64,000 nucleotides of DNA from a candidate division WWE3 bacterium (lineage in GTDB: Bacteria; Patescibacteriota; WWE3; JAUXAW01). The stretch spans positions 3,195-67,194 of the forward strand of contig JAUXAW010000001.1 of the NCBI GenBank assembly GCA_030619715.1, written 5' to 3'. A program made the translations under genes and the position numbers. The notes under the pieces are model-generated. The model saw only the letters and a program-made list of their open reading frames with translations, was not told where the DNA came from and did not search any database. This document shows, one piece after another, positions 2,944-29,744 of the stretch; positions within the stretch are counted from its first letter, which is position 1; the number at the start of each line of letters is the position of its first letter.

Positions 2944-3522
2944 CTACTGACCCCACTTTAACGATCGCCCTTCATCAAGAAGCATCAGAAGCATGATTCC
3001 GTAGTTGGCTAAATCCAGAGCCGTGTCCGGCAGTTTCTCGTCGGCAACTTTTCTTTTGTAACTTTTTTTGGAAAGCTGGGTGAGACGAAAGTATTTGTCC
3101 CCGATCCGGACTCCCAGTCCGGGAATCCCCCAAAAGCGAAAGGCATTCCCGTAATCGGCATTTTTACGCCGGAAAAGACTGGTCATTTCTCTGACCAGCT
3201 TCTTAAAAGCTTTTGGTTCGGAAAGACCCAGAAGACTGGGCCTAAAGAAGTTAAGATGAAAGTTGGTAGCATTGATAACTAAGGATTCTGTCGTGCTCTG
3301 AATCCGCTTGCGTAACTTCTGATCCTGTGGTCTCTTTTGCGCCTGGATAAGAAGTTCGACCAGCTCAAAATAGTCTTTCCTCAAATTAGCAGGAGGGTCG
3401 GTAGGATCGTAACTCAAAAGCTGATCCTGACTTAGTGACAAAATCCGTTTCGCCGCAACGGCAAAGTGAGCGGCATTCTCCTTATTGGAAGCCCTCATTA
3501 GTTTTTTTAAATCTTTCATCAT
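2944..3522 (-). CDS. DUF1599-like (nucleotide-modification-associated domain-like) protein, 192 aa.
   Basis: The motif KNADYGNAFRFWG...RIGDKYFRLTQL resembles the K-x-x-DYG-x-A-W/F-R ... D-K/Q-I/Y-F signature I associate with DUF1599. This recollection is unverified. Confidence 0.4.
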   Translation of the reverse strand: MMKDLKKLMRASNKENAAHFAVAAKRILSLSQDQLLSYDPTDPPANLRKDYFELVELLIQAQKRPQDQKLRKRIQSTTESLVINATNFHLNFFRPSLLGLSEPKAFKKLVREMTSLFRRKNADYGNAFRFWGIPGLGVRIGDKYFRLTQLSKKSYKRKVADEKLPDTALDLANYGIMLLMLLDEGRSLKWGQ

Positions 3523-3754: not shown

Positions 3755-4810
3755 CTAAGCGGGAAGAAGGGTCTGACCAGTCCGGAGGGCTCGGGCAACC
3801 TTGTTGGGTATAGTTAGATCTAACTCCCAAAAATTTTGCTGGCGGGTGATCGGTTGGACCGGACCCGAACCACTCTGGCCACTCAGCCATGGCAAAAGAA
3901 TTTTTTCCGCGACCCATTTACTCGCCGCCGGGGCCACTGACTTTGAAATTAAGACCTGCGCCTCGAGAGGCCTTGGCCGAACCGACAAAATATTCAGAAT
4001 CTTGTCAAGCGGATAGGTCATTAGCGCGGCGTGTTCCAAAAGGTCAAACCAGCGATTCTCCTCCTGCCAAACCATCAGCCGTCGAGAAAGTACCGAACCG
4101 GTGTACCAATCTTTCTGGCTGATTATTTTTGGCACCACCGAACGAAACTTCATCTCCAAATCCCGTTTCTCCGCCCAGGCCACCGGATTAACCGCTTCTT
4201 TGGAAAAAACAGGATGCCCGAAGTCATAGCCTTCTGTTTCAGACTTCAACCAATCACCAACTTTATAATCGGAGGGCCAAACGGTCTCCGGGACAGAGGG
4301 GGGTTTCCTGGTCATACTGGTATGGATGATGTGAACACGTGGCCTTCTTTGAGGAATACCGATGTAACGTAAATCCAACCGTACAAGTAAGGTTGTCACG
4401 TTGTCCCAGACATCATAAAGTTGATTGTGAAAATTTGTCAAAAGCTTTCGTCCTAATGTCCAAGATAGAGGGCCTGTTTCCCACCAGATAACTTGGGCGC
4501 GAGAAGCTCCTGCTACTTTAACAAGATCAAGGATTTCCGGAAAAGTTTCTGGATCCTCGTGGGACTTCTTATCAAAGAAACTTAAACTTAAGTGGCTGAA
4601 CCTAGAACAAGGCGGGTTCCCTACAACAATATCTGCTTTAGGAAGACTGTCCGGCATCTGGGAAACTTCTTTGCTCGGCAAACCCAAGGACTGTGCCCCG
4701 CGCAATCCGGGTTTCCAAACTTCCTCACTTTCGAGAACCAGCAAACCCGCCTGTTGGAGACCTAGTAAAAATCCTCCTAAATAACAATGAGTTCCAATAA
4801 CTTTAAGCAT
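3755..4810 (-). CDS. Divergent DNA C5-cytosine methyltransferase-fold protein, 351 aa.
   Basis: Motif IV GNPPCSRFS (PC nucleophile). Motif VI-like WWETG (ENV equivalent). Motif VIII QRRPR. Motif I is degenerate (IGTHCYLGGFLLGLQQAG, no FxGxG). The start is 6 bp after the stop of the upstream kinase gene. Confidence 0.6.
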   Translation of the reverse strand: MLKVIGTHCYLGGFLLGLQQAGLLVLESEEVWKPGLRGAQSLGLPSKEVSQMPDSLPKADIVVGNPPCSRFSHLSLSFFDKKSHEDPETFPEILDLVKVAGASRAQVIWWETGPLSWTLGRKLLTNFHNQLYDVWDNVTTLLVRLDLRYIGIPQRRPRVHIIHTSMTRKPPSVPETVWPSDYKVGDWLKSETEGYDFGHPVFSKEAVNPVAWAEKRDLEMKFRSVVPKIISQKDWYTGSVLSRRLMVWQEENRWFDLLEHAALMTYPLDKILNILSVRPRPLEAQVLISKSVAPAASKWVAEKILLPWLSGQSGSGPVQPITRQQNFWELDLTIPNKVARALRTGQTLLPA

Positions 4811-9717: not shown

Positions 9718-9893
9718 TTCGCTTCGCCAAGTCTGACTTGGCTTCGCTCAAGAACCTTGCATTTGAGCATAGTCTAACGACTATTAGCTCAAAAGTAGGC
9801 CTTCGGCTTATTTAACTCCGGTACTTGACTTCTGTCCTGTATTATGTTAAAATTAAGAAGTAAAATGTGGTCGCAGAGCTTAATCTGCCAAAT

Positions 9894-9922
9894 TTGACAA
9901 ACGGAACAAAAACTGTTATAAT
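9894..9922 (+). promoter_or_regulatory. Perfect consensus sigma70 promoter TTGACA-17-TATAAT.
   Basis: TTGACA at 9894-9899, exactly 17 nt spacer, TATAAT at 9917-9922, then TTAAGG. This is the same cassette as at 26836 and 26904. Confidence 0.6.
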
Positions 9923-9928
9923 TAAGGT

Positions 9929-10021
9929 ATAAGCTCAAAAAGAAGCTTAAAAAAAGGCAATCAGCACTTGGTCTCGATATTCTTGTTATATCAAGGTCAA
10001 CCGCGGGTTGCCTTTATTTTT
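9929..10021 (+). ncRNA. Candidate short transcript or attenuator: promoter-proximal hairpins ending in an intrinsic terminator.
   Basis: Predicted TSS ~9929. Hairpin CAACC-gcg-GGTTG (9998-10010) followed by CCTTTATTTTT. An upstream imperfect hairpin sits around 9966-9994. Confidence 0.25.
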
Positions 10022-10057
10022 AGGCAATAAAACCAAATTCAAAGCGAGGAGGCAAAA

Positions 10058-10153
10058 ATGGCAAAGTACAAAACACCGCCGAGGTCCAAAAAGCGGCCGA
10101 CGGAGAACAGGGCGCTCGGTAGCATTCGCCGTCGGCAGCAACGACGCTCCTGA
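10058..10153 (+). CDS. Candidate 31-aa highly basic peptide (MAKYKTPPRSKKRPTENRALGSIRRRQQRRS).
   Basis: GAGGAGG RBS 5 nt upstream of the ATG. A second RBS+ATG mini-ORF (10 aa) starts at 10197. Could be leader peptides. Confidence 0.25.
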   Translation: MAKYKTPPRSKKRPTENRALGSIRRRQQRRS

Positions 10154-10691
10154 CCCAACACTTGGCCAGGAGCCAACAAAAACTAAAGGAGGTCACAATG
10201 CACAAAATGTCCGAGTTTCACCAACCTTAGCCGAAAGGCGAGGAACCCTCCTGAAACAAAAAACATCCCTGAATAGGGGAGCGGGTTGCAAGTAGGGAGG
10301 GAAAATAAAGGGCCTGGGCAGCCCTTCGGAGGGAAAGTTCGTCGGACAACGATGTCCAACAACTTTCCCTCCAATCCACCTGCTCTCAACCAACCGTTGA
10401 GGTCGGATGGATTCAACAACAATTTAACAACGAGGTGACACACTTGTGTGTTACCGCAGTTGACAAAAGACCTGTGGGTTGTAAGACGCGGAAAGTTCGG
10501 AAAAACATCGATTTCCGAATTTCCCTTGTCTTATTCACCCTTCATAAAGTTCAAAAAAAGAAAGGGGGCAAAATAAGACCAAAATGTACCACCTGACTCC
10601 GGACACCTGAACCCGCAAGGGCAGGCAACAGGAGGAGTCAGGGCCCACGCCCCCGTCCTTCGGGACACGGGCACGGGCAAGAAGGAGAGAA
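10154..10691 (+). promoter_or_regulatory. Long GC-rich structured 5' leader upstream of the cold-shock-domain gene.
   Basis: Nested hairpin GGGAAAGTT...AACTTTCCC at 10337-10375. Hairpin CTGACTCC...GGAGTCAG around 10594-10644. Hairpin GGTGACACAC-tt-GTGTGTTACC around 10433-10456. CspA-type genes typically carry long regulatory leaders. Confidence 0.3.
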
Positions 10692-11300
10692 ATGGCTAGT
10701 AGAATTAAGTTTTTCAACGGTACTCGCGGCTTCGGCTTCATCAAGCGCGAGGGGGAGCGAGACATCTTCTTCCACATCTCCGATGTGGTGAGCGGTTACA
10801 AACCGCAAGAAGGTGACTCGGTCGAGTTCGAGGTTGGTCAGGGCAAGAAGGGGCCCGCCGCCAGGAACATCCGCCCCGCCTCAGCCAATTCCGGTGAGGC
10901 GACCATGAAGGTCGTGATGGAGGGCGACGCGGTAACGAGCTCTGGCTCGTGCACCATCATCTGCGGCCTCAAAGGGGAACCGCTGCCAGCACTCAGTGCC
11001 CCCATGCGGGGAACTGGTAAGGGTAGCTACGCCACCCTGCGAGTAGGGAAGCACATCCAGGTGAAGGGTTCCTGGTACAGAGGCGAACCCGCCCAGATTA
11101 CCGTGGAAGAGGTTACTCCTGTCAAGGACGGAGAGCCGATTCGCGAGCTACTCTGGAAGGGAATTGCCGAGGAACTACCGGAGGTCTATGCCTATCTGGA
11201 GAAGGCAGTGCGCGCTGCGGATGAAAAAGCCCAGTGCTACCACTGCCACCACCTGCACTTTCCGGTGGCAAACGCTGGGCAGCTCGGCGCCAGAGTGTAG
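10692..11300 (+). CDS. Cold-shock-domain protein with a ~135 aa C-terminal extension (Cys/His-rich tail).
   Basis: N-terminus KFFNGTRGFGFIKREGERDIFFHISDV...GDSVEFEV is a CspA-like CSD. C-terminus carries QCYHCHHLH. GC about 60%. Confidence 0.75.
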   Translation: MASRIKFFNGTRGFGFIKREGERDIFFHISDVVSGYKPQEGDSVEFEVGQGKKGPAARNIRPASANSGEATMKVVMEGDAVTSSGSCTIICGLKGEPLPALSAPMRGTGKGSYATLRVGKHIQVKGSWYRGEPAQITVEEVTPVKDGEPIRELLWKGIAEELPEVYAYLEKAVRAADEKAQCYHCHHLHFPVANAGQLGARV

Positions 11301-21116: not shown

Positions 21117-21151
21117 AGAGCCAAGCTCTGACGGAAAAAGAGCTTGGCTCT
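21117..21151. promoter_or_regulatory. Perfect 13 bp inverted repeat AGAGCCAAGCTCT-N9-AGAGCTTGGCTCT between glyQS and the mraZ promoter.
   Basis: Seen directly. No T-run on either strand, so this is a terminator-like or operator hairpin. Confidence 0.5.
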
Positions 21152-24953: not shown

Positions 24954-25594
24954 GCTGCTCCTCTCGCCTGCAAAACTGCCAACGGTGTTTTGAGGATAAT
25001 GTAAAAATCGTAGAGGATTGAACGGCGGTCGGCATAGGCCGCATCCATTTTAGCCCTCTCGACAAAACTAACCTCCGAGCGACCTCCAACCTGCCAAGGA
25101 CCAGTAATTCCCGGCTTAACTTTTAAGAGCCGCTCAACATACGGACGGCTCTCGGGAAAAACGCGCTGCTGGTCCCGTAACTCAAAAGGAAAATAGGCAC
25201 GCGGCCCGACCAAACTCATCTCTCCCCTCAAAACGTTGATAAACTGCGGAAACTCATCAACACTCACCCTCCGCATAAAATTCCCTCCTCCAATAATGCG
25301 GGGGTCGTTTTCCAATTTGTAGCTATTTCTCTTGTACTCCTCATAAAGTTCGGAATGTTGTAGCAGATAGGCGTGGGCGTTGGGAATCATTGAGCGAAAT
25401 TTGTACATCCGAAATTTTTTACTATCTTTGCCAAGTCTTTCGGGGATATCCGCAAACACCGGACCCGGAGAAATAAGTTTGATATAAACGGCAGTTAGGA
25501 GCATCAGGGGACTAAAGACTACCAAACCAACGATCGCACCCACGATGTCAATCAGGCGTTTGGTCTTGTCATAAAAGTCTGGTGTGTTCTTCAT
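24950..25594 (-). CDS. Polyprenyl-phosphate sugar-1-phosphate transferase (initiating phosphoglycosyltransferase, PglC/WbaP C-terminal-domain type).
   Basis: KFRSM. DEFPQFINVLRGEMSLVGPRA. PGITGPWQV. The start at 25594 has a GGAGGG RBS; the track start is 25696. Confidence 0.85.
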   Translation of the reverse strand: MKNTPDFYDKTKRLIDIVGAIVGLVVFSPLMLLTAVYIKLISPGPVFADIPERLGKDSKKFRMYKFRSMIPNAHAYLLQHSELYEEYKRNSYKLENDPRIIGGGNFMRRVSVDEFPQFINVLRGEMSLVGPRAYFPFELRDQQRVFPESRPYVERLLKVKPGITGPWQVGGRSEVSFVERAKMDAAYADRRSILYDFYIILKTPLAVLQARGAA

Positions 25595-26705
25595 AAAGGC
25601 CCTCCACAAAACCCTCAAGCTCTCTCTGGAAGCGCTTCTTACTAAATCTTGCCGCCTGCGCGTAGCAGTCTTCACTATGATACTGTGCCGTACCAAAGTG
25701 TTCGAGAGCCTTGGTTAGGGCCTCAACCGTTTGTGGATAGAAAAACTCCCCCGTTTTGCCTCCAATCACCGTTTCCAAAGCCCCACCAGCTTTAAAAGCG
25801 ATGACCGGTTTTCCCACCGCCTGTGCTTCCAGAGGCGTGATTCCGAAGTCCTCTTTCTGCGGAAAAATCAAGGCACGGCAGCCTTTATAGTAACTGACCA
25901 CCTCTTCGTCTGTCAACCGATCAAAGAGCTCGACTGTGGGTCCCGCTAATTTCTTCAGCCGTTCAAAATCTGGACCTTCGCCGATGATTTTGAGAGGAAG
26001 TTTGAGCCGGTTGCCGGCTTCGATCGCAATATCGATTTTTTTCCAGGCAGTCAGGCGAGAAACAATTAAATGGTAATCTGAATTAGCGACCGAGGGGTCC
26101 GCGAGCGGAACGTTAGGGTTCGGAGCCGATCGGAACCGATCCAAATCTACGAACGGGTAAATGATGTGCGAATCCCGACCGTAGTATTTTTTGATTCGCG
26201 CCTGCGGCGTCTTGGAGTTGGCGATAAAGTGGTCAACTCGTTGAGCAGCAGCGTAATCCCAAAGGCGGAAATAGGATAAAAAGGGATTTAAGAGGGATTT
26301 AAAGGGATAGGGAAAATTTTCAAAATAAGTTTGGGGTTCCCAAAACATTCGCGGTGGGGTATTCATATAGCAGATATGAAGCGTCTCCGGCCGTGTAATC
26401 ACCCCGTGGGCAAATCTCGTTGAAGATGACAAAACAACATCGTAACCTGTTAGATCAAAACTCTCAAAAGCAAGTGGATAGAGTGGGAAATAATGGCGGT
26501 AAAGTTTTTCCTTAAACGGCAGCTTCTGCATAAACGAAGTTTTGAGATTTGAGATTTGAGATTTCCACTGGGCGGAGGCCATGGATGTAAAAACGTCAGC
26601 TTTGGGGAACGTCTCGATCATTGCCATAAACAACCTCTCCGCTCCCCCATGTTGAATCAAATCATCATGAACCAAAGCGATTTTTATTTCAGTCATCGTC
26701 CCCAT
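25569..26705 (-). CDS. GT4-family glycosyltransferase.
   Basis: EDFGITPLEAQAVGKPVIA (E-x7-E region). Contains the in-frame heptamer repeat at 26538-26566 (KSQISNLK). Confidence 0.8.
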   Translation of the reverse strand: MGTMTEIKIALVHDDLIQHGGAERLFMAMIETFPKADVFTSMASAQWKSQISNLKTSFMQKLPFKEKLYRHYFPLYPLAFESFDLTGYDVVLSSSTRFAHGVITRPETLHICYMNTPPRMFWEPQTYFENFPYPFKSLLNPFLSYFRLWDYAAAQRVDHFIANSKTPQARIKKYYGRDSHIIYPFVDLDRFRSAPNPNVPLADPSVANSDYHLIVSRLTAWKKIDIAIEAGNRLKLPLKIIGEGPDFERLKKLAGPTVELFDRLTDEEVVSYYKGCRALIFPQKEDFGITPLEAQAVGKPVIAFKAGGALETVIGGKTGEFFYPQTVEALTKALEHFGTAQYHSEDCYAQAARFSKKRFQRELEGFVEGLYEEHTRLL

Positions 26706-26733
26706 TTTATCACACCCTATCTGTTTTCTCCCG

Positions 26734-26814
26734 TGATGTAGTGGCAGGCTTGTCTGTTACCTCCCCTCACTAAAGTGATGTAATTCCCGTACGGCCGTAC
26801 GCAATTAACATCAC
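26734..26814. promoter_or_regulatory. Operator-like element: three GTGATGT(A/T)A boxes (two direct, one inverted) around a perfect 14 bp palindrome CGTACGGCCGTACG.
   Basis: gtgatgtag (26734). gtgatgtaatt-CCCGTACGGCCGTACG-caattaacatcac (26775-26814). Confidence 0.45.
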
Positions 26815-26835
26815 TTCCCACCAACCCCCTCATAT

Positions 26836-26864
26836 TTGACAACCATCTTGTAATATGGTATAAT
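26836..26864 (+). promoter_or_regulatory. Perfect consensus promoter TTGACA-17-TATAAT (copy 2).
   Basis: TTGACA at 26836-26841, 17 nt spacer, TATAAT at 26859-26864, then TAAAGG. Confidence 0.6.
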
Positions 26865-26903
26865 TAAAGGGTGGGATGCAGTAGCGAACTTTAGTTCGCG
26901 CAT

Positions 26904-26932
26904 TTGACAAACAGAGCATTCTATGCTATAAT
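26904..26932 (+). promoter_or_regulatory. Perfect consensus promoter TTGACA-17-TATAAT (copy 3, tandem to copy 2).
   Basis: TTGACA at 26904-26909, 17 nt spacer, TATAAT at 26927-26932, then TAAGAAGG. Confidence 0.6.
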
Positions 26933-27162
26933 TAAGAAGGAAAATGGGATAAGACGATGGAGAGAGGCCCAGGAGGGCTTTTGGTAGAAGGACGCGAAAC
27001 GCTCGTTTCTTTCCATCAGAAGCCTTTAAGGTTCTTCGAAAGTCACAAAACAGAAAGTGAGGAAAATTGCTAAAATTGCGGTTAGCAGCCGCCGGAGGCT
27101 CTCAAATCCAAAACCGAGAGCTTCTGTAAAAATCCTGGCGAGATGCCAGGAAAAGGGGCAAA

Positions 27163-27426
27163 ATGTCTACTCCAACCTTGTGGAGGGAGGACTGGGGGGA
27201 GTACTCCTTCCGCCCGCCGTGTGGGCACGCCGGTGGCGGTGCAGGTGACCAAATCCCCCACGACGAGGTGGACGAGACTGGTACATGGACATGTCCTGTG
27301 TGTGGGCTGTCCATCCAGATAACAGGCTCGTCCCCCGTGCCAAGTGACAACTGGAGTGACTCCAATGATGCCCTCGTCACTTGGCCGGATGGAAGGTTAG
27401 AACTATTTGCAGTTCACGATGTCTAA
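27163..27426 (+). CDS. Small GC-rich protein with a zinc-ribbon-like CxH...CPVCG motif, 87 aa.
   Basis: ATG preceded by GGGG. A hairpin CTGGC-gagat-GCCAG lies just upstream. GC about 60%. The only plus-strand gene inside a minus-strand glycosyltransferase run. Confidence 0.45.
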   Translation: MSTPTLWREDWGEYSFRPPCGHAGGGAGDQIPHDEVDETGTWTCPVCGLSIQITGSSPVPSDNWSDSNDALVTWPDGRLELFAVHDV

Positions 27427-27464
27427 CCTCCTTAATAACCGTATTCGCCTCTTAAGGCGAGTTG

Positions 27465-27533
27465 ACACGCTTAACGTACGGTTACTTAACCAGAAATGGT
27501 TGAGGTTCCGAAAGCGTGTCTTCTTTTGTTTGT
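27465..27533 (+). terminator. Large intrinsic terminator (possibly bidirectional).
   Basis: 9 bp stem GACACGCTT/AAGCGTGTC enclosing an inner hairpin, followed by TTCTTTTGTTTG. Confidence 0.55.
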
Positions 27534-27558
27534 AAGAGGAGGATAGCAAGCAAGCTTG

Positions 27559-28599
27559 TCACTTCAAAACCGATCGGAGAACCGACAGAGTTTCGCGGGC
27601 ACACTTTTCCCAAGAAAATTTTTCCGACTGCAAAAGTCCTTTTTGAATTATTCTCTGATAATTTGAATTATCGAAGTGAAGAACTTTTTTAATTCCCTCG
27701 GCGATGCTTTCAACACCGAAAGGGTCAACATAGACAACGGCGTCACCACCAACCTCAGGCAGCGAAGAAGCGTTGGAGGTCACCACCGGAGTTCCGCAGG
27801 CCATCGCTTCCAAAACCGGGAAACCAAAACCCTCGTAATAAGACGGATAAACAAAAACCAGGGCCTTTCGATAAAGTTCGACCAAATCTTTCCGCGCCAC
27901 AAACCCCGGAAACTCCACTGTATCTTCAATACCCAACTTCCTAACTTTCGCTCTAATCATTTTAGTTTCAATTTTATCTTTATTAACAAACTGCCCTCCG
28001 GGCATTATTAATTTCAGCTTTGAGATTTGAGTTGTGGATTTGAGTTTTGAGTTTTGAGTTTTGAGATTGGCGAAAGCCTGTACGAGCCTGAGTATGTTCT
28101 TATTCACCTCCACCCCACCTACAAACAAAATATAATTTCCCCTTTCTTCTTTAGGGACAGGATCCTGCGTTCTAAACTCCTCATCAACTCCCAAATAGAC
28201 CCGATGGACGGCGTCTGCACCAACCCCCACAGATCTGACTACATCCTTCTTCGTATTATCAGAATTGACAAGAATCGCGTCAGCCTTTTTCACGCTCCGC
28301 AACTTCCATCGGTAAAGAAGTCCTTTTAAAAAATTGGCTAGGACCCCTTTTTCGGAAAAACGTTTAGTGGCCAGGGGAACAAGGTCGTGAATCATCAAAA
28401 CTCTAGGGCAAGAAACTCGCGGAAACCCGTCCCAAAAGTTGGGCTGTAGAAAAACATCCACTTTAGAAAAATCCCTCGTCTCAATCCTGACATCCGGATC
28501 AACTTTCGGCAACCACTCAATAATATGTTCGGTATAATTCCCAATCCCGCGGCCTTTATATTGATTTTTCGTTGTCCGATCATCAATGCCAATAATCAT
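27559..28599 (-). CDS. GT4-family glycosyltransferase.
   Basis: EGFGFPVLEAMACGTPVVTSNASSLPEV. Start probably MIIGIDD at 28599 (track start 28644). Contains the heptamer repeat at 28018-28072. Confidence 0.8.
   Translation of the reverse strand: MIIGIDDRTTKNQYKGRGIGNYTEHIIEWLPKVDPDVRIETRDFSKVDVFLQPNFWDGFPRVSCPRVLMIHDLVPLATKRFSEKGVLANFLKGLLYRWKLRSVKKADAILVNSDNTKKDVVRSVGVGADAVHRVYLGVDEEFRTQDPVPKEERGNYILFVGGVEVNKNILRLVQAFANLKTQNSKLKSTTQISKLKLIMPGGQFVNKDKIETKMIRAKVRKLGIEDTVEFPGFVARKDLVELYRKALVFVYPSYYEGFGFPVLEAMACGTPVVTSNASSLPEVGGDAVVYVDPFGVESIAEGIKKVLHFDNSNYQRIIQKGLLQSEKFSWEKCARETLSVLRSVLK
28018..28072. repeat. Imperfect heptanucleotide repeat tract (TTTGAGA/TTTGAGT/TGTGGAT, about 7.5 units) inside the GT4 gene.
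   Basis: tttgagatttgagttgtggatttgagttttgagttttgagttttgagatt. It encodes LKTQNSKLKSTTQISKLK. Confidence 0.85.
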
Positions 28600-29744
28600 A
28601 AAAACATTAAAGCATTTAATACCTTCTCGGCTGTTTTTTTCCAACTAAACTTTTTCGCCTGCTGCAAACCCCCTTCAATCAAATCCTGACGATCACCAGC
28701 CAGAACCTTCTCCATCGCCTCGGTAAGCTCGTCTATACTCTGAGGTTTGACCAAAATTCCCGCATCGCCTACAACCTCCGGAATTGAGGTGGTGTTGGCC
28801 GCAATTACCGGACAGCCGCAGGACATCGCCTCAAGAACCGTCAGACCGAAGCCCTCATGAAAACTGGGATGGACTAGCGCCACCGCCTCGTTCAAAATCG
28901 CCGCCACCTCCCGGTCATCCTCAATCCTTCCGGTTAAGATAACATCATTTTGTAACTTAAGTTTCTTAAGAAGATTAAGAAGATTCCGAGAGTCTTGATC
29001 CCTCCCCTTCGCATCCACCGACCCAATTAAAACCAACGTGGGATGAGAACCGATCCGCCTTTGGCGGATGAGATTAGCAAACGCCCGAAGGAGCGTTTGC
29101 AAATTCTTGTGCGGTCGAAAATTTCCCAGATAAACAAAAAATGGCTTTGAGATTCCATACTTGTCAAGGACCTGCCTGCCGGCAGGCAGGGCTTCGCTCT
29201 TGACATCACCGTCGTTGATGGGTTCGTAGGCCTCACTCGCTGCGCCGCGAATATTAATAATCCTACCCTCCTCCACCCCCAAAAATTCTTTTATGTCACT
29301 TTTCACAAACTCAGAAATGGTAAAAATTACCGCCGCTCTTTTGGCCACCAACTTCGAAACAAACACATCGTACAATCTCGCCTTCGGCGAGGCAATTTCC
29401 GGGTACCGGCGGTAAAGAAGATCGTAGATTGTCAGCGCATATTTTTCCCGCAAAAAAAGAGAAGCCCCCCAGGGAGTTGTCCAAAATAAATCTAGTTTGA
29501 GTTTTGAGATTTCCAACGGAAGCGAAAAATGCTGGTGAAAAGAATTCGGCTTTGATCTGACCACAGCGAACTCAAACTGCGGTTGATTCTCTGACCAAGC
29601 TTCCATTTTATTTCCAGGATTCCCAACGAGAACAAATGTATGACCTGACCGCAACCTTGCTAGAGCCTTAATCAGATTCTCCCGATAATTCCCGATCCCG
29701 GTCGGAAAATCCTGAATCATCCGCACATCAATTCCAATTTTCAT
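28596..29744 (-). CDS. GT4-family glycosyltransferase.
   Basis: HEGFGLTVLEAMSCGCPVIAANTTSIPEVVGDAG. Confidence 0.8.
   Translation of the reverse strand: MKIGIDVRMIQDFPTGIGNYRENLIKALARLRSGHTFVLVGNPGNKMEAWSENQPQFEFAVVRSKPNSFHQHFSLPLEISKLKLDLFWTTPWGASLFLREKYALTIYDLLYRRYPEIASPKARLYDVFVSKLVAKRAAVIFTISEFVKSDIKEFLGVEEGRIINIRGAASEAYEPINDGDVKSEALPAGRQVLDKYGISKPFFVYLGNFRPHKNLQTLLRAFANLIRQRRIGSHPTLVLIGSVDAKGRDQDSRNLLNLLKKLKLQNDVILTGRIEDDREVAAILNEAVALVHPSFHEGFGLTVLEAMSCGCPVIAANTTSIPEVVGDAGILVKPQSIDELTEAMEKVLAGDRQDLIEGGLQQAKKFSWKKTAEKVLNALMFL

What the first reader, a model, noticed from the sequence alone, without database searches (positions are those of the whole stretch)
26734..26814. Large palindromic operator-like element upstream of the tandem promoters and of the GT4 gene start
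GTGATGTAATT-CCCGTACGGCCGTACG-CAATTAACATCAC is an ~40 bp near-perfect inverted repeat with a perfectly palindromic 14 bp core. A third GTGATGTAG box lies 40 bp upstream. It sits between the divergent minus-strand GT4 gene (start 26705) and the plus-strand consensus promoters. This is a classic position for a dimeric or tetrameric repressor controlling both directions.
Basis: seen in the sequence. Interest (0 to 1): 0.5.

Follow-up and report, generated by a model that had tools for sequence, protein, structure and literature searches.

The report
Conserved 44-bp palindrome bordering inserted cassette
The palindrome is real, but rather than a one-off repressor site it belongs to a small family of near-identical 44-bp palindromes that sit at gene boundaries of a sugar-transferase cluster in related Patescibacteria, here next to a small gene unit inserted backwards into the operon.

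Summary
A 44-bp zero-spacer palindrome lies at 26773-26816, with a perfect 14-bp core at 26788-26801. It sits between a minus-strand GT4 gene and two perfect plus-strand sigma-70 promoters.

The operator reading is only partly supported:
- The element is not unique. Four other distinct copies occur in relatives, with 29 of 44 positions invariant across the five.
- Those copies lie at both borders of the same antisense cassette (L030/L031) and in an intercistronic GT2-GT4 gap 10-11 nt before a start codon (L002, L035). No promoter is detectable there.
- Spacing to both flanking promoters varies: 19/7/4 nt to P1 and 63/20/51 nt to the outward promoter.
- In other relatives an unrelated palindrome occupies the same position (L001, L033).
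- The inner stem changes by three compensatory pairs.
- No regulator gene is adjacent.

The ~850 bp between the two GT4 genes is a lineage-specific, moron-like insertion. It carries tandem promoters and a leader paralogous to the cold-shock gene's, an orphan ORF, and an outward extended -10 promoter that restarts the downstream GT4 gene.

Best reading (about 0.4): a hairpin- or cruciform-forming boundary repeat, like REP/REPIN elements in behaviour but not a member of that family. An operator or roadblock site (about 0.22) and a cassette landing pad remain open.

The parts
26773..26816 (.). 44-bp zero-spacer imperfect palindrome (type I family): AAGTGATGTAATTCCCGTACGG|CCGTACGCAATTAACATCACTT
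   Evidence: Family members in relatives.
26788..26801 (.). Perfect 14-bp core CGTACGGCCGTACG. The centre CGGCCG is invariant in all five family copies and is also present in the L001 palindrome.
26733..26741 (+). The 'third box' GTGATGTAG. It lies in a block upstream of the outward promoter that is conserved independently of the palindrome type.
26704..26714 (-). Outward extended -10 promoter TGTGATAAAAT. It sits 7 nt upstream of ATG 26696 and is conserved in L001, L030 and L033. It probably gives a leaderless or very short-leader mRNA for the downstream GT4 operon (inferred).
   Evidence: Sequence read. A 32-nt block is identical to L001.
25569..26705 (-). Downstream GT4 glycosyltransferase gene. 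The N-terminal extension MGTMTE is found only in cassette-bearing lineages.
26836..26864 (+). P1: TTGACA-17-TGnTATAAT, 12 of 12 matches
   Evidence: Conserved in L001 and L030.
26874..26901 (+). GTAG-tagged 16-nt hairpin (gcaGTA GCGAAC TTTA GTTCGC GC) between P1 and P2. It is the only window copy of a REP-like repeat that occurs at six sites in the L029-L031 contigs (five distinct sequences).
26904..26932 (+). P2: TTGACA-17-TGnTATAAT, 12 of 12 matches, 68 bp after P1
26939..27162 (+). Leader of the cassette transcript. It is partly homologous to the L031 leader. It contains the hairpin UCCUGGC-GAGAU-GCCAGGA (27133-27151), whose variant in L031 pairs only in this orientation, through G.U pairs.
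27163..27426 (+). Cassette ORF of 87 aa: a small protein with conserved PPCGH...CGL motifs and no Pfam or PHROG family. Real homologues exist elsewhere.
27547..27558 (-). 12-nt palindrome CAAGCTTGCTTG immediately after the stop codon of the upstream GT4 gene. It is CACGCTTGCGTG in L001/L002 and CAGGTTTACCTG in L028, so the changes are symmetric. It marks the far junction of the insertion.
27559..28644 (-). Upstream GT4 glycosyltransferase gene. Its last sense codon plus stop (AAG TGA) coincides with the start of the family's arm sequence.

Best explanation
The element is one copy of a small, lineage-restricted family of 44-bp DNA palindromes. The consensus is AAGTGATGTwAwTT-n5-ACGGCCGT-n5-AAwTwACATCACTT. 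The family occupies cistron and cassette boundaries in a glycosyltransferase cluster of related Patescibacteria.

In this window the copy lies at the inner edge of an ~850-bp moron-like insertion that splits the GT4-GT4 operon junction. Reading along the plus strand, the layout is:
1. GT4 start, reading leftwards.
2. An outward extended -10 promoter.
3. The palindrome.
4. P1, then a GTAG-tagged hairpin, then P2.
5. A csp-like leader.
6. An orphan ORF.
7. The 3' end of the upstream GT4 gene.

Proposed mechanism, inferred rather than shown:
- The element works as a structure-forming boundary element, not as a classical operator.
- It is maintained, and probably recognised, as a hairpin or cruciform. 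It is a zero-spacer dyad with A/T-rich mid-arms, placed in the DNA between strongly divergent promoters. By the twin-domain model (established knowledge) negative supercoiling is highest there.
- In relatives where it lies inside or behind a transcription unit, it forms a ~20-bp stem in the GT-sense RNA. There it would attenuate or demarcate transcripts.

What is shown: family membership, positions, the conservation pattern, the compensatory inner-stem change, the insertion status and the promoter architecture.

What is inferred: that hairpin or cruciform formation is the active form, and that the role is insulation or boundary marking.
For: 1. Five distinct copies have 29 of 44 positions invariant. 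They sit at two non-orthologous junctions and at both ends of the cassette in L030/L031.
2. The L002 and L035 copies fill a 66-91-nt intercistronic gap and end 10-11 nt before the next ATG. No promoter is found there.
3. The inner stem differs between the two junction types as TAC|GTA versus CGC|GCG, which is three compensatory pairs. Overall 88% of cells pair, against 30-52% when the partner is slid.
4. The dyad runs through the centre in every copy. Different palindromes occupy the same positions in L001, L005 and L033, so the palindromic nature persists while the sequence is replaced.
5. Distances to P1 (19/7/4 nt) and to the outward -10 (63/20/51 nt) are not conserved.
6. The segment is an insertion. 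The junction is empty in L002-4, L034 and L035. Antisense orphan ORFs of different kinds fill it in L001, L028 and L030/31.
7. A second, GTAG-tagged hairpin repeat sits 58 bp away in the same cassette. In L031 one copy of it is flanked by a 7-bp direct repeat, which shows that palindromic repeats are active in these genomes.
8. RNA folding is 2.3-4 kcal/mol more stable in the GT-sense orientation in 5 of 7 elements.
Against: - Copy number is low. There is one copy in 64 kb and no further copy in 150 kb of held DNA, and all copies lie in one gene cluster. This is unlike genome-wide REPs.
- The window copy is 43/44 identical to L030's across a GT4 divergence of 68% amino-acid identity. That is more than a purely structural constraint needs, and it points to sequence-specific recognition by some protein.
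- The window copy lies outside all three predicted transcripts, so an RNA role here would depend on read-through.
- The compensatory change is effectively one evolutionary event.
- The orientation bias in folding could come from strand-biased C-to-T mutation.
- No family member passes the tool's terminator criteria.
- No transposase or recombinase was seen.
Confidence: 0.4

Rival explanations
1. Operator or roadblock site. A trans-acting DNA-binding protein, a dimer of dimers or a tetramer, recognises the conserved outer boxes AAGTGAT/ATCACTT and the centre CGGCCG. It controls the divergent promoters here. At the intercistronic copies it acts as a transcription roadblock.
For: - The sequence is very strongly conserved: 43/44 against L030, and 29/44 invariant over five copies, while the flanks diverge.
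- The copies are confined to one functional gene cluster, as a local regulon would be.
- In L030 the palindrome exactly fills the 71 nt between the outward -10 and the P1 -35.
- The dyad runs through the centre, as in protein sites.
Against: - Spacing to both promoters varies by 15 and 43 nt between copies that are 98% identical.
- L001 and L033 keep the promoters but have unrelated palindromes.
- Several copies lie where no promoter exists.
- The non-conserved inner arms still co-vary.
- There is no regulator gene in or next to the cassette. The window's HTH, MraZ and AlbA_2 proteins are 6-34 kb away, and MraZ is known to bind direct repeats, not this dyad (the MraZ point is from my own knowledge).
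- There is no second copy in the window.
Confidence: 0.22
2. Recombination site or landing pad. The palindromes are att-like sites at which promoter-bearing gene cassettes are inserted or exchanged. A circular cassette carrying one copy recombines with a resident intercistronic copy and leaves a copy at each border.
For: - In L030/L031 the cassette is flanked by two family copies.
- Solitary copies sit at another junction in L002 and L035.
- The GT4-GT4 junction holds different orphan ORFs in different lineages and is empty in others.
- The far-border copy begins at the conserved AAG-TGA end of the upstream GT4 gene, and decayed remnants of it are readable in L001.
Against: - Cargo replacement breakpoints lie at the ORF start and inside the leader, not at the palindromes.
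- The bases next to the centre, where a tyrosine recombinase would bind, are the variable part.
- The near copy is itself a near-perfect palindrome, not a hybrid of two parents.
- No recombinase or transposase lies in the window ORFs scanned.
- No copy occurs in viral contigs.
- The window has only one border copy.
Confidence: 0.15
3. Intrinsic terminator or attenuator, or mRNA-stabilising hairpin, of the GT-sense transcript. It stops or demarcates read-through that has crossed the cassette before the outward promoter restarts transcription.
For: - All five copies are followed by 3-5 T in the GT-sense orientation. TTT is invariant at alignment columns 47-49.
- The L030 far-border copy has TTTTT exactly where the upstream operon must end.
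- The sense-orientation RNA stem is -14.6 to -26.5 kcal/mol and is usually the more stable orientation.
Against: - No copy meets the terminator scan criteria.
- The L002 and L035 copies lie 10 nt before a cistron that has no promoter of its own, so an efficient terminator there would silence the operon.
- A self-complementary, invariant loop and 98% sequence conservation are not expected of terminators.
- Canonical GC-rich terminators with long T runs do exist in the same cassettes (L001 and L030).
Confidence: 0.12
4. Invertible promoter switch. The family copies act as inverted repeats for a recombinase that flips the promoter-bearing segment of a surface-polysaccharide locus.
For: - The locus is a polysaccharide cluster.
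- Strong promoters lie between two mutually inverted-repeat copies in L030/L031.
Against: - All cassette-bearing assemblies have the same orientation: window, L001, L029, L030, L031 and the partial L033.
- The window lacks the second copy.
- The whole ORF and its terminator would flip too, so downstream genes would gain nothing.
- No invertase gene was found.
Confidence: 0.03

Closest known systems
REP / REPIN elements (GTAG- and CGTC-tagged repetitive extragenic palindromes; Di Nocera et al. 2013, PMC3733652; Bertels and Rainey 2011, PMC3116915)
   Same: Both are short imperfect palindromes defined as a sequence family. Both lie outside genes at the ends of cistrons and are often co-transcribed. 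Both are replaced by other palindrome families at the same position in relatives. A true GTAG-tagged small hairpin repeat lies 58 bp away in the same cassette.
   Different: This element is 44 bp with no spacer and no GTAG or CGTC tag. It has very low copy number and is confined to one gene cluster. No RAYT was seen. The phylum (Patescibacteria) is not among those named in that paper's abstract; I read only the abstract.
CIRCE element / HrcA operator (own knowledge)
   Same: Both are long, highly conserved inverted repeats found between promoter and gene and also between cistrons. CIRCE is known to act both as a DNA operator and as an RNA hairpin.
   Different: CIRCE is 9+9 bp with a 9-nt spacer and a different sequence. 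It has a known regulator and a heat-shock regulon. None of these applies here.
Neisseria minimal mobile elements and Correia repeats (own knowledge)
   Same: A fixed junction between two conserved genes carries different whole-gene cassettes in different strains or is empty. Small inverted-repeat elements sit at the borders. Some of those repeats carry or abut promoters.
   Different: Correia elements are 100-155 bp with terminal inverted repeats and TA duplications. Here the border element is a single 44-bp palindrome, and the promoters are a separate csp-like module.
Phage 'morons' (own knowledge)
   Same: The surrounding insertion is an autonomous unit with its own strong promoters and an orphan ORF. 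In L001 and L030 it also has a canonical terminator. Its G+C content is deviant (58-60% against 46%). It is wedged between two genes of an operon.
   Different: It is chromosomal, antisense to the operon and flanked by palindromes. It also supplies an outward promoter that rescues the downstream genes.
Integron attC sites
   Same: Both are imperfect palindromes with unpaired bases at cassette borders, and the cargo varies between strains.
   Different: There are no R'/R'' core sites (GTTRRRY/RYYYAAC) in the required arrangement and no integrase. The promoters travel with the cassette, and the cargo breakpoints are not at the palindrome.

Membership tests
Transcription-factor operator in a divergent promoter region | Dyad-symmetric site | tested here: met
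   The arms are 22 nt with no spacer.
Transcription-factor operator in a divergent promoter region | Fixed position or phasing relative to the core promoter(s) it controls | tested here: not met
   The gap to the P1 -35 is 19, 7 and 4 nt in window, L030 and L001. The gap to the outward -10 is 63, 20 and 51 nt.
Transcription-factor operator in a divergent promoter region | The same box occurs at other regulated promoters | tested here: not met
   There is no second copy in the window. The copies in relatives lie in an intercistronic gap and in a convergent 3'-end region, with no promoter detected.
Transcription-factor operator in a divergent promoter region | A cognate regulator is encoded nearby or otherwise identified | tested here: inconclusive
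   There is none within the cassette or the flanking GT genes. The HTH_3-dNK, MraZ and AlbA_2 proteins lie elsewhere in the window. Binding cannot be tested here.
REP / REPIN | Imperfect palindrome of 20-40 bp defined as a sequence family, located outside genes | tested here: met
   There are five distinct 44-bp copies, all intergenic. The length slightly exceeds the usual range given in PMC3733652.
REP / REPIN | High copy number dispersed over the genome | tested here: not met
   There is one copy in 64 kb. The covariance model finds no further copy in 150 kb, and all copies lie in one cluster. Whole genomes were not available.
REP / REPIN | Unpaired GTAG or CGTC tag at one end | tested here: not met
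   The 44-bp element carries no such tag. The neighbouring 28-nt hairpin at 26874-26901 does carry GTAG(TA).
REP / REPIN | Associated RAYT (Y1 transposase) | tested here: inconclusive
   None was found among the window ORFs scanned. The rest of the genome could not be reached.
Rho-independent terminator | Stable stem-loop followed directly by a U-rich tract (at least 5 of 8) | tested here: not met
   The scan does not report the window copy, the L030 copies, the L002 copy or the L035 copy. The tails have 3-5 T, counting two that are paired in the stem.
Tyrosine-recombinase core site (dif / att / attC) | Conserved inverted binding arms directly flanking a 6-8-bp crossover region | tested here: not met
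   The positions next to the centre CGGCCG are the variable ones. The conserved arms are the outermost 7-11 bp.
Tyrosine-recombinase core site (dif / att / attC) | Sites at both borders of the mobile segment | tested here: inconclusive
   This holds in L030/L031. It does not hold in the window, and L001 has only a decayed remnant.
Invertible promoter (inverton) | Both orientations of the segment are found in populations | tested here: not met
   Only one orientation is seen in window, L001, L029, L030, L031 and L033. The sample is small.

The most novel reading that the evidence does not exclude
The 44-bp palindromes are landing pads of an undescribed cassette system in Patescibacteria. Orphan genes drawn from a mobile pool would be plugged, antisense, behind a duplicated cold-shock-type tandem promoter and leader, at palindrome-marked cistron junctions of surface-glycan operons. 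An outward promoter keeps the operon alive. On this reading the palindrome is the recognition structure of a still unidentified hairpin-specific recombinase or HUH enzyme.
Probability: 0.12. Interest if true: 0.75.

Novelty: new variant of a known kind. Interest (0 to 1): 0.45.

Why it matters
Patescibacteria have tiny genomes with few regulators and few known repeats. A conserved palindrome family that marks where foreign orphan genes enter a surface-polysaccharide operon would point to how these episymbionts vary their surface and acquire genes. So would an expression platform copied from the cold-shock gene. The practical lesson is that a striking dyad between divergent promoters is not automatically an operator. 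Comparison with relatives changed the reading.

Tried and rejected
- Rfam, at gathering thresholds over the whole window and at permissive thresholds over 26600-27700: nothing relevant.
- tRNA/tmRNA scan: none.
- Phage and plasmid DNA similarity for the 853-bp gap: no match.
- Genome contigs with the 87-aa ORF: no relative.
- Genome contigs and metagenome contigs with the promoter 18-mer: only chance hits, 12 and 10 loci, all unrelated.
- Metagenome contigs with a 20-mer of the outward promoter: none.
- Viral contigs with the palindrome pattern and with the ORF family: none.
- Exact-protein look-up of the window's own GT4 gene and of the ORF: not on record.
- dif/XerD similarity (GATGTTAAtT against TTATGTTAAAT): rejected, because the arm orientation is inside-out relative to dif.
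- attC: rejected, because the R'/R'' motifs are lacking.
- CRP-, LacI- and parS-like half-sites: rejected on spacing and sequence.
- The minus-strand 'terminator' at 27151-27133: reinterpreted as a leader hairpin of the plus transcript, because its L031 variant pairs only in that orientation.
- Target-site duplications around the 44-bp copies: none consistent.
- Within-element versus between-element arm similarity: only slightly higher (8.0 against 6.9 of 12). Concerted arm evolution therefore rests mainly on the inner triplet.

Full report
**1. Observation**

The sequence AAGTGATGTAATTCCCGTACGG|CCGTACGCAATTAACATCACTT occupies 26773-26816.
- The repeat finder gives two abutting 22-nt arms, 82% complementary without gaps.
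- With one bulged base and a 2x1 internal loop, 20 of 22 positions pair.
- The 14-bp core at 26788-26801 is a perfect palindrome.

The dyad is more than chance would give.
- As single-stranded DNA its hairpin has z = -5.4, and 0 of 200 shuffles fold as well.
- In a gapped-palindrome scan it is the second best dyad of the whole 64-kb window. Its score is reached in 1 of 30 simulated windows.

The 'third box' GTGATGTAG at 26733-26741 is present, and the heptamer is rare in the window.

**2. Local anatomy**

Almost all genes of the window are on the minus strand. The palindrome lies in an 853-bp gap between two minus-strand family-4 glycosyltransferase genes, 27559-28644 and 25569-26705. These belong to a polysaccharide cluster with GT2, Bac_transf and DUF4012 genes.

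Plus-strand features:
- Two 12-of-12 extended sigma-70 promoters at 26836 and 26904, 68 bp apart.
- A 16-nt hairpin between them.
- A 224-nt leader.
- An 87-aa ORF at 27163-27426 with 58-60% G+C, against 46% for the window.

The ORF is a real gene. It has a 58%-identical homologue (E = 5e-24) and a second, more distant one, found in an unrelated context. It has no Pfam or PHROG family.

On the minus strand, TGTGATAAAAT (26714-26704) is an extended -10 element lying 7 nt upstream of ATG 26696. This block is conserved in L001, L030 and L033 with the same 7-nt spacing. I infer that it is an outward promoter giving a leaderless or short-leader mRNA for the downstream GT4 gene.

**3. The gap is an insertion**

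GT4 homologues identify the organism as a Patescibacteria/CPR bacterium.
- In relatives L002-L004 (75% GT4 identity), L034 and L035, the two GT4 genes are 51 bp apart or overlap. There the downstream protein starts MKIALVHDD.
- Other relatives have an antisense orphan ORF of a different kind at exactly this junction:
  - L001: 156 aa.
  - L028: 313 aa.
  - L030/L031: the same ORF, called as 127 and 119 aa.

- Window and L001 are homologous from the GT4 gene through the promoters up to 26938. They are then unrelated until the 3' end of the upstream GT4 gene.
- Window and L031 also share much of the leader.

The unit therefore behaves like a moron inserted backwards into an operon: strong promoters, leader, exchangeable ORF, and in L001 and L030 a canonical terminator. 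Its outward promoter repairs the polarity the insertion would otherwise cause.

The promoter module 26834-26945 is 63% identical (71 of 112; alignment score 25 against -21 +/- 5 for shuffles) to the tandem-promoter module at 9824-9935. That module has the same 68-bp spacing and drives a long structured leader and a cold-shock-domain gene. The L031 leader is weakly similar to the csp leader.

**4. The palindrome is a family**

- L029, L030 and L031, whose GT4 protein is only 68% identical, carry at the same place a copy that is 43/44 identical. The surrounding intergenic DNA is about 67% identical with indels.
- The same loci have a second copy, AAGTGATGTAACTTTCATACGGCCGTAGCGAAATAACATCACTT, at the other border of the cassette, next to the 3' end of the upstream GT4 gene.
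- L002/L003 and L035 have further copies in the GT2-GT4 intercistronic gap. This is a non-orthologous site, and the copies end 10-11 nt before the next ATG.

The five distinct copies align without gaps, and 29 of 44 positions are invariant. The invariant positions are the outer boxes AAGTGAT and ATCACTT, the centre CGGCCG and a few others.

The inner stem is TAC|GTA at the GT4-GT4 junction and CGC|GCG at the GT2-GT4 junction. That is three compensatory pairs. Overall 88% of cells pair, against 30-52% when partners are slid.

A covariance model built from the five copies finds no further copy in the window or in about 87 kb of related loci. No copy occurs in viral contigs.

In L001, the closest relative, the same position holds a different 46-bp palindrome. 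It resembles one at the GT2-GT4 junction of L005. L033 has only a 16-nt palindrome there.

**5. What this says about function**

Against a classical operator:
- Spacing to both promoters varies between copies that are 98% identical.
- Several copies sit where no promoter is detectable.
- The palindrome is replaced by unrelated palindromes while the promoters persist.
- The non-conserved arm positions stay complementary.
- There is no nearby regulator.
- The third box is conserved, or absent, independently of the palindrome type.

Against a plain terminator:
- No copy meets the terminator criteria.
- The intercistronic copies precede cistrons that have no promoter of their own.
- An invariant self-complementary loop is not expected of a terminator.

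For a structure-forming repeat:
- The family character of the sequence.
- The boundary positions.
- The compensatory change.
- The replacement by other palindromes at the same sites.
- A second, clearly REP-like repeat in the same cassette. It is a GTAG(TA)-tagged 16-nt hairpin with six stem variants that all pair. It is present once in the window, at 26874-26901, and at six sites in the L029-L031 contigs. One of those is flanked by a 7-bp direct repeat. The REP features are taken from PMC3733652.

RNA folding is usually more stable in the GT-sense orientation, but strand-biased mutation could explain that.

Some evidence keeps a protein partner in play. Conservation of 43 of 44 positions across deep divergence, and the confinement to one gene cluster, exceed what structure alone requires. 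The partner could be a regulator or roadblock, or an enzyme that recognises the hairpin.

**6. Verdict**

My estimates:

| Reading | Confidence |
|---|---|
| Hairpin- or cruciform-forming boundary element of a low-copy palindromic repeat family, at the edge of an inserted antisense cassette; like REP/REPIN in behaviour but not a member (copy number, tag and RAYT criteria not met) | about 0.4 |
| Operator or roadblock site | about 0.22 |
| Cassette landing pad | about 0.15 |
| Attenuator or terminator | about 0.12 |
| Inverton | about 0.03 |

To my knowledge, and by a literature search that returned nothing relevant, no such family has been described in Patescibacteria. I rate it a new variant of a known kind, of moderate interest.

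**Limits**

Only five distinct copies from three or four lineages were available. Whole genomes could not be searched. The genome and metagenome scans and the contig look-ups are exhausted. All functional statements are inferences from sequence.

Noticed in passing
window 9762-11300: There is a second tandem-promoter module: TTGACT-17-TAAAAT at 9826 and TTGACA-17-TATAAT at 9894. It has the same 68-bp spacing, a hairpin between the promoters and its own upstream palindrome at 9762-9794. It drives about 760 nt of highly structured non-coding sequence, which contains the best palindrome of the window at about 10328-10370. A cold-shock-domain gene follows at 10692-11300. There is no Rfam match. 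The region looks like a very long csp 5'-UTR (a thermosensor?) in a CPR bacterium.
   Followed up: partly
window 26874-26901; L029 7954-8019 and 9112-9139; L030 110-137, 5453-5550; L001 5830-5857: This is a 28-nt GTAG(TA)-tagged hairpin repeat, TTGTAGTA GCGnAn TTYA nTnCGC GC. It has six different stems that all pair, and clusters of copies alternate in orientation, as in BIMEs. A 7-bp direct repeat (TCGGTTT) flanks the L030 110-137 copy (= L031 1804-1831). It is REP-like and, as far as I know, not described for Patescibacteria.
   Followed up: partly
window 26694-26714: The downstream GT4 gene probably starts at ATG 26696, not 26705. The conserved TGTGATAAAAT extended -10 lies 7 nt upstream, which suggests a leaderless mRNA. 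In L030 the gene caller over-extended the ORF through the palindrome (P0010 N-terminus MLIAYGRTGITS...).
   Followed up: partly
window 27163-27426; L032 450-698: The cassette ORF belongs to a small family of 77-87-aa proteins with invariant FxPPCGH, CGL and LVTxPDG motifs, possibly a zinc knuckle. It has no family assignment and occurs in an unrelated gene context in L032.
   Followed up: partly
GT4-GT4 junction: window 26706-27558; L001 5072-6000; L028 6464-7578; L031 1812-2670: The same junction carries unrelated antisense orphan ORFs (87, 156 and 313 aa, and one ORF called as 119/127 aa) in different lineages. It is empty in others. This is a gene-cassette hot spot comparable to minimal mobile elements.
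   Followed up: yes
window 27547-27558; L001, L002, L028 homologous sites: A 12-nt palindrome lies directly after the stop codon of the upstream GT4 gene. It changes symmetrically between lineages: CAAGCTTGCTTG, CACGCTTGCGTG, CAGGTTTACCTG.
   Followed up: no
window about 29076-29100; L001 about 3440-3465; L002 about 2300-2325: A hairpin lies inside the coding region of a GT4 gene and is also present at the corresponding gene in L001 and L002. In L001 it reads TTTGCAAACGCTCCTTCGGGCGTTTGCAAA. The stem GCAAACGC/GCGTTTGC is present in all three and the loop differs.
   Followed up: no
whole window: TACGTA occurs once against about 17 expected from base composition, and CGTACG 6 times against about 13. 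Three of those six CGTACG sites lie in the cassette region (two of them in the palindrome core). This may reflect restriction avoidance. A weak C5-cytosine methylase hit lies at 3755-4810.
   Followed up: no
window 21117-21151: A perfect 13-bp stem with a 9-nt loop lies between the glycyl-tRNA synthetase gene and mraZ. It is the only long ungapped hairpin in the window and is probably the terminator of the upstream operon.
   Followed up: no
L029 6750-6823: In this lineage the GT2-GT4 gap holds a different inverted structure of about 80 nt. It is built from tandem TAAATGG / CAATTTAA units. So the same cistron junction carries three or four unrelated palindromic structures in different relatives.
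   Followed up: no
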